NCBI GenBank assembly: GCA_951406725.2
Contig: CATOCA020000073.1
Location: 1-8,564, forward strand
Source of the DNA: Octopus vulgaris
Taxonomy: Eukaryota
Length of the DNA: 8,564 nt
Direction of reading: 5' to 3'
The translations under genes and the position numbers were made by a program. Positions 1 through 8,564 of this stretch are shown one piece after another; the first letter of the stretch is position 1; every line of letters begins with the position of its first letter. The notes beneath the pieces are model-generated. The model saw nothing but the letters and a program-made list of their open reading frames with translations, searched no databases and had not been told where the DNA came from.

Positions 1-1
1 A

Positions 2-313
2 CGATTTGAGAAGGATCGCTGGGAATCCATCAGGTCCAGCAGCTGAGTTTGTGTCAATCTCATCAATGGCTAGTGTGATATCATCTTCTTCGATGTTGAT
101 GTACTCAATTTTTGTCTCTTTGGCCGCTGGTAAAGTGGCAAAGAATTCTTCTGGGTTGTTTACTTGCCTGTGTCCTAGAGGTGTAGTGAACACACTTTGG
201 AACTGTTCGTTCAGTATTTCACTTATCCTCGTGGGATTTCCTGTGAGAGAGCCATCTTTTTGGAAGAGAGGTGCTATTCTCTGGTGCACTGTGGCTGTCT
301 CTTTGGCAAACTT
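2..313 (-). pseudogene. Frameshifted continuation of ORF2 (pre-reverse-transcriptase region), open to the window edge
   Basis: Manual translation gives 104 codons without a stop: KFAKETATVHQRIAPLFQKDGSLTGNPTRISEILNEQFQSVFTTPLGHRQVNNPEEFFATLPAAKETKIEYINIEEDDITLAIDEIDTNSAAGPDGFPAILLKS. The GPDG motif normally lies just before the RT core. Confidence 0.88.
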
Positions 314-1487
314 AAAAGAAAGCTTTAGGGTTTGATTTTATATTTTCTATTACCCAAGCTTCTTTATCTGCTCTCTCCTTTTCATGGGACTGATGTAGAC
401 TTTTCTCAGTTTCCGTTAGCATTCTTTCGAGCCGAGACTTCTCACCACTTTTGGTGTGCTTGCTCAGGCGGTTTGCAATCCTTGTCCGTCGTCTCATAAG
501 AATCCTCCTTTCTCTAGGGATCCTGTTTTTGTTCTTGTGTGTGCTGGCCCTGCACATTGGGACATATTTGTCACATATGGCTTGTATTATGGACATGAAG
601 TGTTTGTGTTTCATGTTTATGTCCGGTGTGGAGAGACATTCAGGCCAATCCTGTTTGAGGATCTCTTTCTCAATCGACTTCCAGTTGGCTTTATGAAAGT
701 TTAAGTTGGAGAGATAGTAGGTGCTTCGTATAGGCTGTGTGTCTGCGGGGGCATTTGTTCCATACATAGACAGCTCTATTATGTTGTGATCCGAGATCAT
801 TGTCGGCATCACATTAACATTATGGATAATATCCATATTGTTTGTGAAGCAGAGATCCAGTATATTATCTGTCCTTGTTGGTTGCAGAACTATTTGCTCC
901 ATGAAAGAGGTATTTGTGAGATGGAGCAGGGACTCCACCTGTGCCTGCTGATGGTGTGTCATCCCTGGGAGCATCTGCCCCCCAGGCCATTCCACATTGG
1001 GGAGGTTAAAGTCACCCATGAAGAATACACTGTTGTGCTGTTCAAGGTTGGTGAGGACTTCTCCTATTTTTGTTAGGCAGTCTTCAAACATGCCTGAGTG
1101 TTTTGGGGCGTCTGGTGGGCGATATGTAGTGCATATGACGATATTCAGTTGTCTTATGTGTACAATTTGAGTTTCACATACTGAGTTTGAATATGACAGC
1201 AGGACCTGGGGCGTGAGGTCATCTCGGATGTACATTGCAACTCCACCATGGCTCCTCCCTTTTCTATCTGTGCGTATGACTGCATATTGCGGCATGTGTA
1301 TTTCTGCATCACCTATATCGGGTTCAAGATGCGTTTCTGTGAGTGCCATGCATATAGCTTGATTGCATGTCACAAGGTCTCTCAGGAATGAAATTTTCTT
1401 TTTACAGTTTCCGCGCAGCAGCCCTCCTACATTCAGTAGAAATATTTTTGTGGTGTGTGTGTTGGTGTTGGTGTCTGTGGTGGCCAT
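312..1487 (-). CDS. LINE ORF2 N-terminal part: apurinic/apyrimidinic-like (APE) endonuclease domain plus linker
   Basis: The track ORF 312..1580 carries all APE motifs in order: IFLLNVGGL, ALTETHL, DRKGRSHGGVAMYI, YRPP, MGDFNLP, PTRTDNILDLCFTN, ISDHNII. The first in-frame ATG is at 1487 (MATTD...). The TAA at 314-312 results from an extra base in the A4 run at 314-317. Confidence 0.92.
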   Translation of the reverse strand: MATTDTNTNTHTTKIFLLNVGGLLRGNCKKKISFLRDLVTCNQAICMALTETHLEPDIGDAEIHMPQYAVIRTDRKGRSHGGVAMYIRDDLTPQVLLSYSNSVCETQIVHIRQLNIVICTTYRPPDAPKHSGMFEDCLTKIGEVLTNLEQHNSVFFMGDFNLPNVEWPGGQMLPGMTHHQQAQVESLLHLTNTSFMEQIVLQPTRTDNILDLCFTNNMDIIHNVNVMPTMISDHNIIELSMYGTNAPADTQPIRSTYYLSNLNFHKANWKSIEKEILKQDWPECLSTPDINMKHKHFMSIIQAICDKYVPMCRASTHKNKNRIPRERRILMRRRTRIANRLSKHTKSGEKSRLERMLTETEKSLHQSHEKERADKEAWVIENIKSNPKAFF

Positions 1488-2065
1488 CCTGCATCTGTTG
1501 GAGGTGGCCTTATGTGGTGGTAGTTCCAGCTTTGTGCTTGTAGCCAGGTCAGCTGCTGAACAATTTTTTGTGCCATGCACAAAAAGACTGCTGTTCAGCT
1601 GCCGCCCTTCTCACATCTGGGTGAAGCTGGCCACCTGTTGGGTTTCTGCTCACCACATCTGTATACCGTCTTTCAGTAGTGGTCAGTGCGCTTTTTTCCC
1701 TTCTTTTAACTTTTTGTTTTGTTTTTGTTCTCCCTGAGGGGGAGAACTGTCTAACGTCCGTGCGGTTTTGGTAGGGCCTCCGATGTGCAAAGCGACAGTT
1801 TGCACCTTCAACGCCGTACCAGCAGACCCCCTCAGGTAGAATTTGCAGGTGTTTCTTTCCCTGGCCTTACAGTTTTGCTGGGGTCCCTCTGATTTCTCTG
1901 GACAGGGCTTCCTTTAGCCTTGATTCTGTCACCCATTACCTCCTGCTTCCCATCAATTCCAGGGTGCCTTTCCTTTCTTGCGGCCATCGCACCTCTTTGG
2001 TCTTCAGTTGTGGTGTTGGAAGCTGGACATGTGTCATCGTTTCCCTGTGTTCCAGGCTTCTCCAT
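1433..2065 (-). pseudogene. Putative LINE ORF1 (about 211 aa after repairing three 1-nt deletions) with a CCCH-type zinc finger
   Basis: Pieces in successive frames: [11 protein letters not shown]...KTVRPGK, then [10 protein letters not shown], then [18 protein letters not shown]...RRYTDVVSRNP...EQQSF, then LCMAQKIVQQLTWLQ...PQKYFY* (TGA 1435-1433). Each join needs one extra base in a homopolymer (about 1856-1858, 1827-1831, 1581-1585). The position of the first join is not uniquely fixed. The start may be 5'-truncated. Confidence 0.62.
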
Positions 2066-2114
2066 TTGGCTTTGGATGCTTTCCTCATCATGTGTATATA
2101 TATATCCAGTGTAT

Positions 2115-3195: not shown

Positions 3196-3196
3196 A

Positions 3197-3265
3197 AATA
3201 AATATAAGAGAGTGGTCACTATATGGCTCACTCTAGCACCAGTTAATCCAAAAGGTTTCAACCAC
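3197..3265 (+). other. Short unique island: AATAAA, hairpin and GTTAATCCA...TCAACC; possible 3' tail remnant of a Penelope-like repeat
   Basis: AATAAA at 3197-3202. Hairpin AGAGTG-GTCA-ctata-TGGC-t-CACTCT at 3209-3234. The layout parallels 7806-7872. Confidence 0.35.
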
Positions 3266-3595: not shown

Positions 3596-4488
<893 letters not shown>

Positions 4489-4650: not shown

Positions 4651-4651
4651 A

Positions 4652-5059
4652 GGCGCAGGAGTGGCTGTGTGGTAAGTAGCTTGCTAACCAACCACATGGT
4701 TCCGGGTTCAATCCCACTGCGTGGCATCTTGGGCAAGTGTCTTCTACTATAGCCCCGGGCCGACCAATGCCTTCTGAGTGGATTTGGTAGACGGAAACTG
4801 AAAGAAGCCCGTCGTATATATGTATATATATATGTGTTTATGTGTTTGTGTGTCTGTGTTTGTCCCCCCCCAACATCGCTTGACAACCGATGCTGGTGTG
4901 TTTACGTCCCGTTACTTAGCGGTTCGGCAAAAGAGACCGATAGAATAAGTACTGGGATTACAAAGAATAAGTCCCAGGGTCACATTGCTCGACTAAAGGC
5001 GGTGCTCCAGCATGGCTTCGCAGTCAAATGACTGAAACAAGTAAAGAAAGTAAAAGAGA

Positions 5060-5060
<1 letters not shown>
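4652..5060 (+). mobile_element. Full-length tRNA-derived SINE (about 410 bp) resembling octopus OK/OR-type SINEs; subfamily not assigned
   Basis: tRNA-like head with Pol III A and B boxes, a CORE-like CTTGGGCAAGT (4728-4738), an internal TA/TG tract (about 4815-4863), a 3' stem-loop CAGTC-aaat-GACTG (5021-5034) and an A-rich AGTAAAG-like repeated tail. The family resemblance is from memory, not from a search. Confidence 0.9.
4662..4715 (+). promoter_or_regulatory. Internal RNA polymerase III type-2 promoter of the SINE (A box and B box)
   Basis: A box TGGCTGTGTGG at 4662-4672 (one mismatch to TGGCNNAGTGG). B box GGTTCAATCCC at 4705-4715 (matches GGTTCRANNCC). Spacing is tRNA-like. Confidence 0.85.
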
Positions 5061-6567
<1,507 letters not shown>

Positions 6568-6876
6568 CTAGACCTCCTAAAGTGTAGACACGAATCTGTA
6601 GGTACGAGTACGTATGTGTATATACGTGAACGTATGTAGATGTTTGTATGTATGAATATAACGCGTGCGTACGTGTATGTGTATAGAGTGTACGAATGGG
6701 TGTGAATGTACGTGCTAATGAATGTGCGTTTGGGAATGAGTACTTGCCTTCTAGTAGACAGACAAATGGACATGCTGCCATAGCCAGGATCCCTTAGCTC
6801 TAGCGATGAAAGATAACAAAAGTAATAAATGAAGATAATAAAATTAAAATTAGGGGAATGGGCCTGTATTGGATTG

Positions 6877-7509: not shown

Positions 7510-7600
7510 TTATATATATTTTATTTTTATTTATTTTTTTTATATTTTTTTTTATTTTTATTTATTTTTTTTAATTTTTTTAATTTTATTTTTTTAATTT
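6877..7600. repeat. Degenerate (TG/TA)n purine-pyrimidine repeat, then (TA)n and a T-rich low-complexity tract
   Basis: Directly visible. A short unique stretch lies at about 7430-7470 and the T-rich run at about 7505-7600. Confidence 0.93.
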
Positions 7601-7714
7601 ATCTATTCTTTCATCTAACTTACCACTGACTCCTTCGGCCTCCCCCAAGTATGATATTTTGCGCTATGCCTACCCCCAAAAAGTCCCCCACCACTCCTTA
7701 AACCTGCCTAAATG

Positions 7715-7721
7715 TATAAAT
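7715..7721 (+). promoter_or_regulatory. Candidate TATA box upstream of the hammerhead
   Basis: TATAAAT starts 29 nt before stem I, so a Pol II start would fall at the ribozyme 5' end. The motif alone is weak in AT-rich DNA. Confidence 0.4.
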
Positions 7722-7743
7722 GCTAATACAATTCATGTTAAAT

Positions 7744-7795
7744 AGCTTCCTGAAGATTTCTCTTAGATGAGAACAGTACTAGTCCTGTAGAAGCT
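7744..7795 (+). ncRNA. Minimal type I hammerhead ribozyme motif (one A short in the GAAA core as assembled)
   Basis: Stem I AGCTTC (7744-7749) pairs perfectly with GAAGCT (7790-7795). Core CTGAAGA at 7750-7756. Weak stem II at 7757-7770. GAAC instead of GAAAC at 7771-7774. Stem III ACAG...CTGT lies within the near-palindrome ACAGTACTAGTCCTGT (7773-7788). Cleavage triplet GTA at 7787-7789. Confidence 0.7.
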
Positions 7796-7805
7796 CCTTC
7801 TATAT

Positions 7806-7811
7806 AATAAA
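7806..7811 (+). promoter_or_regulatory. Candidate polyadenylation signal AATAAA downstream of the hammerhead
   Basis: AATAAA lies 10 nt after stem I'. It is supported only by context. Confidence 0.4.
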
Positions 7812-7882
7812 TTAATTTTACTCAGCTATGTATTGAGTACCTTACTTACTGTGGTTAACCCACGAATCAACCCGGGACCTAC

Positions 7883-7887
7883 ATATA

Positions 7888-7942: not shown

Positions 7943-8564
7943 TGATTGATTGATTGATTCTAGTTTCAGCTTATGAGCTGTGGCCATGCTGGTGCCATTT
8001 GGTGTTGCTACTTGGTTTCACTTCATGGAGGCTTTCTAGCAACTGCTATATTGGTGCATGAGAGAGTTCGATGCAGCTGCCTCATCTACCACCCTCCTGC
8101 CGTGAAGTTGGTTCATCTGGGACACCTGACAGGAAGAGATCCAGCTTCATATTTTAAAGACATCTGTATCCACCATGCAGGTCTCTCAGGTTCTTCGGGA
8201 GGATATTGAAGAGCTATTGGGCCTCGGAAGCCCAGGCTATCACAGAATCTTGTCCTACATCTTGATGGAAGGTTTGGAGTCCTAGGCACCACGCAGTGGC
8301 AACCCGGATTCTGGCATTTGCGTAACTCTCGATGCCAAAGTTTCAGGACACTTCCCTCCAGGATCTTCCAGATGTATATTATGGCATATCTTTCCCGCCT
8401 AATATAATATAATTTTAATGTCTTGAGTCTTTCCCAGTAGCACATTCTGCATAGAATATCTATCTTTGTGTAGCTTCGTTATCGCCTCAATTTTATCAAC
8501 TTACATATGATGACCATATAGAGCAATTAAGTGGCTTATACAAGTGTCTATCCAGAGGACCATC
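7941..8564 (-). mobile_element. CR1-type LINE copy B: 3' end with ORF2 C-terminus, short 3' UTR, terminal stem-loop and (ATCA)n tail; runs off the right edge
   Basis: CR1-type C-terminal peptides, a terminal hairpin CAGCT-cata-AGCTG (7980-7967) and a tandem tetranucleotide tail seen as (ATTG)n at 7941-7959. CR1 elements typically end in a hairpin plus microsatellite rather than poly(A). Confidence 0.9.
8023..8564 (-). pseudogene. Multiply frameshifted C-terminus of LINE ORF2 (post-RT region)
   Basis: Fragments across frames: YWERLKTLKLY, RRERYAIIYIWKILEG, NFGIESYANAR, HCVVPRTPNLPSRCRTRFCDSLGFRGP, LFNILPKNLRDLHG, KLDLFLSGVPDEPT, AAASNSLMHQ. Likely stop TGA at 8025-8023. Confidence 0.85.

What the first reader, a model, noticed from the sequence alone, without database searches (positions are those of the whole stretch)
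7744..7795. Hidden minimal hammerhead ribozyme with palindromic stem III in a TATA-HHR-AATAAA cassette
Seen: a perfect 6-bp stem I directly flanks CUGAAGA on one side and the GUA triplet on the other, stem III closes as ACAG/CUGU, and 7773-7788 is one mismatch from the perfect palindrome ACAGGACTAGTCCTGT. Known: Penelope-like elements and non-LTR retrozymes carry minimal type I hammerheads whose palindromic stem III allows dimeric self-cleavage. Inference: this is a self-cleaving RNA module of an unannotated PLE/retrozyme family, cleaving after 7789. As assembled the core reads GAAC rather than GAAAC and stem II is weak, so this copy is either dead or mis-called.
Basis: partly seen in the sequence, partly recalled or inferred. 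Interest (0 to 1): 0.8.

Follow-up and report, generated by a model that had tools for sequence, protein, structure and literature searches.

The report
Broken copy of a hammerhead-ribozyme repeat
This is one damaged copy of an abundant animal repeat whose sister copies carry an intact hammerhead (self-cutting RNA) motif; the repeat is likely the end piece of a Penelope-like jumping gene, a known arrangement, and one heavily A-to-G-changed sister sequence hints that the host's RNA-editing enzyme may wipe out the ribozyme's catalytic letters.

Summary
The motif is at the stated place and is not chance (0 strict matches in 20 Mb of simulated DNA). It lies in a high-copy repeat of about 280 bp: 736-1391 contigs were laid in each of three large runs from three organisms. 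Sister copies lack base 7771 (77-100% of depth), so the family core reads CUGANGA...GAAA with a 3-bp stem II. The window copy is broken by an extra G (not a lost A) and a scrambled stem II that traps the catalytic bases. Two claims fail. It is not 'minimal' (stem III is 4 bp plus an 8-nt loop). The near-perfect palindrome is mostly a minority variant: 48-92% of depth has T at 7778, and 18% of random loops dimerise as well. Copies end after AATAAA or about 70 bp later, next to (TA)n, which fits a Penelope-like terminal repeat; no link to an RT/GIY-YIG gene could be tested. One contig from a putative RNA run shows 8 of 9 A read as G across both catalytic boxes, which suggests ADAR hyper-editing. 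Verdict: new family of a known kind; cleavage untested.

The parts
7600..7882 (+). One monomer of a high-copy repeat, set between a T-rich/(TA)n tract and (TA)n; likely the terminal repeat (pLTR) plus tail of a Penelope-like element. The 5' boundary is uncertain (depth rises about tenfold at 7640).
   Evidence: 1391, 1011, 736 and 20 contigs laid in four runs, all 29 bins covered; flanking simple repeats; no second copy in the window
7715..7720 (+). TATAAA, 24 bases before stem I; possible promoter element (inferred only)
   Evidence: no sister difference listed here; chance 30% anywhere in the island, 3% in position
7744..7749 (+). Stem I, 5' strand
   Evidence: Pair probabilities 0.72-1.0; same letters in sister loose ends of run X2
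7750..7756 (+). Catalytic box CUGANGA (N7 = A here, U in many sisters)
   Evidence: table 7
7757..7768 (+). Stem II region; in sisters U-U then 3 bp (UUC/GAA) closed by a pyrimidine tetraloop; in this copy the 3' strand reads AGAT instead of GAAT and the register gives U-U, U-A, U-G, C-A
   Evidence: table 7 (12, 29, 22, 25 and 3 contigs in five loose-end rows)
7769..7773 (+). GAAA box interrupted by one extra G at 7771 (reads GAGAA); these bases pair with 7758-7762 in the predicted fold
   Evidence: table 4: 7771 left out in 77%, 98%, 90%, 100% of depth (20, 19, 13, 1 contigs; shares); unpaired probability 0.02-0.19
7773..7788 (+). Stem III, 4 bp (ACAG/CUGU) with an 8-nt loop holding a central CUAG; 7778 is A here, T in most sisters
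   Evidence: table 3
7787..7789 (+). GUA triplet; predicted cut between 7789 and 7790
   Evidence: Sequence plus hammerhead numbering; untested
7790..7795 (+). Stem I, 3' strand
7806..7812 (+). AATAAA(T): first 3' end of the family; many copies go straight into (AT)n here
   Evidence: table 7: 12, 13 and 14 contigs in runs X3, X2, X6
7813..7882 (+). About 70-bp extension (tail-like); ends in (TA)n in this copy and in run X2, continues into other sequence in some contigs of run X3
   Evidence: table 7, place 7861 (16 contigs, agreement 0.96; 15 contigs, agreement 0.78)

Best explanation
The 52 bases are a damaged, likely inactive copy of a type I hammerhead ribozyme motif that is intact in sister copies of an abundant repeat, which is likely the terminal repeat of a Penelope-like retroelement or a non-autonomous derivative of one. 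How it would work: the + strand is transcribed (from its own TATA-like site or by read-through); in intact copies stems I (6 bp), II (3 bp on a U-U pair) and III (4 bp) would bring CUGANGA and GAAA together and cut after GUA (7789 here), slowly, because stem II is weak; stem III is long enough for a monomer, with a strand-swapped dimer as an option rather than a need. Cutting at successive terminal repeats would free a unit-length RNA, possibly circularised, that the element's reverse transcriptase and GIY-YIG nuclease would paste into (TA)n tracts, leaving 5'-truncated solo ends like this one. Shown: motif, multi-copy status, intact family core, the lesions of this copy, ends at (TA)n. Inferred: transcription, cleavage, Penelope identity, circularisation, the insertion route.
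For: Descriptor chance 0 of 20 Mb strict. Sisters in three organisms restore GAAA and stem II exactly where this copy fails (tables 4, 7), a prediction the window alone could not force. With sister letters the hammerhead fold is within 0.3-1.2 kcal/mol of the minimum-energy fold and G12-A14 are 61-87% unpaired, against 2-7% for 7769-7772 in this copy. Family 3' ends at AATAAA(T) and about 70 bp later, both against (TA)n, fit the tail and the (TA)n bias described for Penelope-like elements (PMC8557442 passages). Hammerheads are standard in their terminal repeats and mostly found as solo motifs (PMC4209133). A U-U pair at the base of helix II occurs in the axolotl HHR_Amex2, which cleaves 22% in one hour as a monomer (PMC7229834 section 15).
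Against: No RT or GIY-YIG sequence in the window (the 50-codon frame 7593-7742 gave only 3 repeat-protein hits) and no long sister locus could be fetched, so the Penelope link is by analogy. Rfam gives no hit for this copy. The active fold holds only 2-4% of the ensemble even with sister letters. The family lacks G10.1-C11.1 and the long helix II of described minimal PLE hammerheads. No covariation could be counted: only short unitigs and loose-end majorities were seen, 65 loose-end rows were hidden, and far-end letters rest on few contigs. Eight of nine predicted Xenopus retrozyme dimers showed no cleavage in vitro, so even intact-looking copies often fail.
Confidence: 0.68

Rival explanations
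1. The repeat is a stand-alone non-LTR retrozyme (tandem 170-400-nt units yielding circular RNA), and this is a dispersed monomer.
For: Size about 280 bp and 39% GC fit; stem I of 6 bp is the canonical length; mollusc retrozymes with non-canonical loops exist (PMC7229834 section 14); monomers are common in such families.
Against: Single copy in the window; no head-to-tail joint among the contigs laid (table 5: none, weak because unitigs are short); two distinct 3' ends at (TA)n look like pLTR plus tail. The 2026 preprint argues retrozymes are pLTR derivatives anyway, so this rival is close to the main reading.
Confidence: 0.2
2. The family motif is a hammerhead fossil: once active, now non-cleaving in all copies, spreading passively with the repeat.
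For: Weak stem II with U-U and a pyrimidine tetraloop; active fold 2-4% of the ensemble; an uncut contig spans the predicted site in the putative RNA run (record 6); low activity is common in this class.
Against: Both boxes and three stems are kept in the majority letters of three organisms; slow but real cleavage is reported for a U-U-based helix II.
Confidence: 0.08
3. The window copy is in truth intact or active and the extra G is an assembly error or a tolerated variant.
For: The window is about 56% simple repeat with a 177-base A run, a setting prone to errors; no laid run holds this exact copy (best share of words 0.27), so the base cannot be checked.
Against: Removing 7771 alone does not restore stem II (hammerhead fold -3.6 against -8.5 kcal/mol, probability 0.0); the copy also departs from sisters at 7695, 7778, 7824, 7862 and several indels, as an old copy would.
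Confidence: 0.03
4. Chance look-alike in an ordinary repeat.
For: No Rfam hit; fold z-score -0.53; loosest descriptor expects 0.14 per window.
Against: Strict descriptor 0 in 20 Mb; sisters repair exactly the two defective parts.
Confidence: 0.01

Closest known systems
Type I hammerheads in the pseudo-LTRs of Penelope-like elements (Cervera and de la Pena 2014, PMC4209133)
   Same: Type I topology, CUGANGA/GAAA core, dispersed solo copies, self-complementary element in loop III, position just before a 3' end
   Different: Described animal forms have no or 1-2-bp helix III, a long helix II, G10.1-C11.1 and an extra base after position 9; this family has a 4-bp helix III with an 8-nt loop (closer to the 'large helix III' monomer-active forms of fungal and protist PLEs), a 3-bp helix II and U-U at its base. 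Link to an RT/GIY-YIG ORF not shown.
Non-LTR retrozymes, e.g. mussel retrozyme and axolotl HHR_Amex2 (Cervera and de la Pena 2020, PMC7229834; Li et al. 2026 preprint 10.64898/2026.07.22.740005)
   Same: Unit of a few hundred bp, GC under 45%, 6-bp helix I, U-U at the base of a weak helix II (Amex2)
   Different: No tandem array or circular RNA seen; helix III longer; copies end at (TA)n
Rfam Hammerhead_1 matches reported in the giant squid genome (235 loci; PMC6962438 passage)
   Same: Type I hammerheads already noted in a cephalopod
   Different: Those were unexamined model hits; this copy does not score against Rfam; whether they are this family is unknown
ADAR hyper-editing of repeats (Porath et al. 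2017, PMC5625713 passages)
   Same: Clusters of A-to-G in repeat RNA; octopus has among the highest rates; a lizard Penelope element is massively edited
   Different: Here the edits fall on both catalytic boxes of a ribozyme; seen in one contig only

Membership tests
Type I hammerhead ribozyme | CUGANGA box directly after stem I | tested here: met
   7750-7756; sisters CTGATGA or CTGAAGA
Type I hammerhead ribozyme | GAAA box before stem III, in this copy | tested here: not met
   Reads GAGAA, extra G at 7771
Type I hammerhead ribozyme | GAAA box before stem III, in the family | tested here: met
   7771 left out in 77-100% of depth in 4 of 4 runs; loose ends read GAATGAAACAG in X3 and X11 and end GAATGA before AACAG in X3, X2, X6
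Type I hammerhead ribozyme | NUH triplet and helices I and III, open ends in helix I | tested here: met
   GUA 7787-7789; 6-bp and 4-bp Watson-Crick stems
Type I hammerhead ribozyme | Helix II in register with the core | tested here: inconclusive
   Broken in this copy; 3 bp plus U-U in sister majority letters (data); no covariation count possible
Type I hammerhead ribozyme | Match to an Rfam hammerhead model | tested here: not met
   No hit at E<=10 for 7600-7885; an intact sister could not be scanned
Type I hammerhead ribozyme | Site-specific self-cleavage | not testable with these tools
   Contigs cannot show RNA ends
Minimal hammerhead (min-HHR) of animal PLEs | Helix III absent or 1-2 bp, forcing a dimer | tested here: not met
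   4 bp plus 8-nt loop; definition in PMC4209133
Minimal hammerhead (min-HHR) of animal PLEs | G10.1-C11.1 pair and an extra base between 9 and 10.1 | tested here: not met
   U-U at 10.1-11.1 with no spare base in the sister register; features listed
Minimal hammerhead (min-HHR) of animal PLEs | Palindromic loop III | tested here: inconclusive
   Central CUAG kept; homoduplex -12.8 (family) and -15.2 kcal/mol (window), matched by 18% and 9% of 5000 random loops
Penelope-like element (EN+) | RT plus GIY-YIG ORF flanked by this repeat | not testable with these tools
   No genome held; no loci found; none in the window
Penelope-like element (EN+) | Ends against microsatellite, with a tail at one end | tested here: inconclusive
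   Two ends at (TA)n, 7812 and about 7882; tail of about 70 bp is longer than the 30-40 bp described; LINE and SINE here also sit in (TA)n, so the bias is not specific
Non-LTR retrozyme | Tandem units each with a hammerhead | tested here: inconclusive
   Monomer in the window; no joints, but unitigs are short
Non-LTR retrozyme | Abundant circular RNA | not testable with these tools
   No raw RNA reads were offered

The most novel reading that the evidence does not exclude
A very abundant, probably cephalopod, repeat carries a monomer-competent hammerhead of its own design, and the host's ADAR systematically hyper-edits its transcripts so that both catalytic boxes lose their adenosines: RNA editing as an off-switch that protects read-through or intronic host transcripts from thousands of embedded self-cleaving RNAs and curbs the element. 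Basis: one 174-nt contig of run X11 (depth 5.66) with 8 of 9 A read as G and 0 of 21 other letters changed over 30 bases on the ribozyme strand, spanning the uncut site.
Probability: 0.15. Interest if true: 0.65.

Novelty: new member of a known kind. Interest (0 to 1): 0.3.

Why it matters
Hammerheads in Penelope-like elements and retrozymes are well described, and this copy is broken, so the finding itself is modest. The family is still useful: it is abundant in at least three organisms, has an unusual stem pattern (3-bp stem II on U-U, 4-bp stem III), and was not found in my literature searches. If, as I recall from the neighbouring SINE, the host is an octopus, it offers a direct test of what happens when thousands of self-cleaving motifs meet the most active RNA-editing system known: whether editing disables them, and whether intronic sense copies are purged or decay (as this one has).

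Tried and rejected
No own genome is held. Exact 19-22-base patterns found nothing in metagenome, viral or prokaryote genome collections, so no long sister locus, no alignment, no covariance model. Rfam: only microsatellite-driven miRNA noise on the window and two chance hits on the island. Run search: no RNA holder listed on record; 20 of 24 rows hold a part, none half of the words; 4 of 24 were laid. The 50-codon frame 7593-7742 is not a Penelope protein remnant: 3 hits in 1.84 billion proteins, all internally repeated proteins (LRR, LVIVD, unnamed), rejected. The LINE pieces on both sides are APE-RT elements on the - strand, unrelated to the ribozyme. A suspected inverted partner at 6720-6870 was not supported. 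A relaxed descriptor missed the motif because its loop limit was too short; corrected. Host name: homologue and cluster look-ups gave no names; ARAGORN found no tRNA. Lunse et al. on dimeric PLE hammerheads is not held; only its title and a review's summary were seen. Earlier scan notes: nothing by sequence, place or the long word list.

Full report
Setting. The window is eukaryotic repeat DNA, about 56% simple repeat by a rough count. It holds the 5' part of an APE-RT LINE on the - strand (endonuclease domain in 312-1610; 66% identical to P0001; 2-337 continues it), a SINE-like island at about 4651-5070 with A- and B-box-like motifs at 4662 and 4705, the island 7600-7882 with the finding, and the 3' end of a second LINE copy on the - strand (8113-8478 matches residues 880-977 of P0001; (TGAT)n tail 7943-7958). 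That the host is an octopus is my recollection from the SINE and the (TA)n load; no call tested it (searches gave no names; codes the organisms A, B, C).

Observation. The predicted fold is a three-way junction of unremarkable stability. A type I descriptor with one core defect allowed found 0, 72 and 370 hits in 20 Mb of simulated sequence at strict, loose and loosest settings, and only position 7750 in the window. Rfam does not score this copy. TATAAA and AATAAA alone are weak signals.

Sister copies. No genome is held and five pattern scans were empty. The run search listed 24 runs, 20 holding a part of the island, none half of its words. I laid 4 of them, from three organisms, at 80% likeness: 1391, 1011, 736 and 20 contigs, all 29 bins covered; summed depth is no copy number, but hundreds of distinct short contigs mark a high-copy, diverged repeat. 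Base 7771 is left out in 77%, 98%, 90% and 100% of depth (20, 19, 13, 1 contigs). Loose-end majorities read GAATGAAACAG after 7764 (12 contigs in X3, 3 in X11) and end in GAATGA before 7772 (29, 22, 25 contigs in X3, X2, X6), with CTGATGA upstream in X3 and X2. So the family has both catalytic boxes intact and a stem II of U-U plus UUC/GAA with a UUUU or UCUU loop. Limits: only 24 loose-end rows were shown and 65 hidden; letters far from the junction rest on few contigs; positions 7754, 7765 and 7766 are not in the table of other letters, so their shares are unknown; contigs unlike the window are less likely to be laid; covariation could not be counted.

This copy. It has an extra G in the GAAA box and AGAT for GAAT in stem II. 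Together these form a new hairpin that pairs 7769-7772 (unpaired probability 0.02-0.07). The copy is therefore most likely dead. Whether G7771 is real or an assembly error cannot be told, but the other departures (7695, 7778, 7824, 7862, several indels upstream) fit an old copy.

Palindrome and 'minimal'. T stands at 7778 in 75%, 77%, 92% and 48% of depth, which makes the family loop less self-complementary than this copy's. Half of the 16-base palindrome is forced by the stem. A homoduplex of stem III is favoured over two hairpins (-12.8 against -2.8 kcal/mol), but random 8-base loops average -9.5 and 18% of 5000 do as well as the family loop (9% as well as the window's). Dimer cleavage is possible, not indicated as necessary. 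By the definition in PMC4209133 (read: parts 1-2 of 4, no figures or supplements) minimal PLE hammerheads have no or a tiny helix III, a long helix II, G10.1-C11.1 and an extra base after position 9; this family meets none of these and is better called a type I variant with long helix III and weak helix II. A U-U base of helix II occurs in axolotl HHR_Amex2, which cleaves 22% in an hour as monomer and better as dimer (PMC7229834, read: passages and sections 14, 15).

Host element. Family copies end at 7812, just after AATAAA, in (AT)n (12, 13, 14 contigs in three runs), or run on about 70 bases to 7882 and then into (TA)n (X2) or other sequence (part of X3); X2 also shows a different upstream sequence before 7640 (5 contigs). 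No joints were listed. This fits a Penelope-like terminal repeat with a tail and (TA)n targeting (PMC8557442 and its preprint, read: passages; review PMC6765202, passages), but the tail is longer than the 30-40 bp described, the LINE and SINE here sit in (TA)n too, and no RT/GIY-YIG link could be tested. Penelope-like elements cover 6.83% of the Octopus vulgaris genome in 190 families (PMC13282606, read: passages and supplement hits), with no mention of ribozymes there. A 2026 preprint (10.64898/2026.07.22.740005, read: parts 1-3 of 5, supplements not seen) derives animal retrozymes from such terminal repeats and found cleavage in 1 of 9 dimers tested.

Mechanism. Likely: + strand transcript, slow cut after the GUA in intact copies, release of unit-length RNA, possible circularisation, reverse transcription and insertion by Penelope proteins at (TA)n, frequent 5' truncation, then decay. 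If the TATAAA is a promoter, the start would fall at about 7745 and the cut would remove a capped leader of about 45 bases; this is inference only. Confidence 0.68 overall (family is a true hammerhead about 0.9; this copy dead about 0.9; Penelope-derived about 0.75, my estimates).

Unexpected lead. One contig of run X11 (RNA is the tool's guess; 174 nt, depth 5.66, laid on 7774-7822, across the predicted cut) has a 30-letter loose end equal to 7743-7773 without 7771 except for 8 A-to-G changes among 9 A, with 21 of 21 other letters unchanged; the chance that 8 changes all fall on A is 1.5e-6 before asking that all become G, picked from 24 rows shown. Both catalytic boxes are hit. This looks like ADAR hyper-editing of a ribozyme-sense transcript. 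Against: one contig, no DNA of the same individual, hidden rows in the DNA runs, and hyper-editing of repeats is commonplace, highest in octopus and frog and massive in a lizard Penelope element (PMC5625713, read: passages), so it may be incidental.

In print. I found no paper describing this family or an octopus hammerhead (searches; listings only unless named above); the giant squid genome paper lists 235 Hammerhead_1 matches (PMC6962438, passage). I found none on ADAR editing of natural retroelement hammerheads among the listings (20 of 71 shown). Repbase, Dfam, the supplements of PMC4209133 and PMC8557442, and Lunse et al. (not held) were not seen and may hold the family. This scan already has 323 notes with the words hammerhead, ribozyme and Penelope in at least 26 genomes, which shows how common the kind is, not support for this case.

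Verdict. Observation confirmed; interpretation partly supported; new member of a known kind; interest 0.3. Most novel reading not excluded: editing as an off-switch for repeat-borne ribozymes (probability 0.15, interest 0.65).

Noticed in passing
run X11, record 6 (laid on window 7774-7822; loose end covers 7743-7773): Contig with 8 of 9 A read as G and no other change over 30 bases on the ribozyme strand, hitting both catalytic boxes and spanning the predicted cut; looks like ADAR hyper-editing.
   Followed up: partly
run X11, loose end before 7779: One contig shows the CTGA.GA box twice in a row upstream of stem III, a locally duplicated or rearranged copy.
   Followed up: no
run X2 before 7640 and run X3 behind 7861: Some sister copies have other sequence before 7640 (5 contigs) or continue past 7882 into non-microsatellite sequence; these are the entry points to the element's body.
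   Followed up: no
window 1-2090, - strand: 5' part of an APE-RT LINE: 432-codon frame with endonuclease domain, a frame break near 312-337, and upstream short frames with a Cys/His-rich ORF1-like stretch; 66% identical to P0001.
   Followed up: partly
window 7943-8564, - strand: 3' end of a second, decayed copy of the same LINE kind with a (TCAA)n-type tail set in (TA)n; 59% identical to the end of P0001.
   Followed up: partly
window 4651-5070: tRNA-type SINE-like island with A- and B-box-like motifs (4662, 4705), inserted in (TA)n; recalled as an octopus SINE, not tested.
   Followed up: partly
window 3786-3962: A pure run of 177 A inside the (TA)n array; possibly an assembly artefact.
   Followed up: no
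window 3196-3265 and 6570-6870: Short unique islands inside the microsatellite; the first begins with TATAAA/AATAAA; neither matches the ribozyme island.
   Followed up: partly
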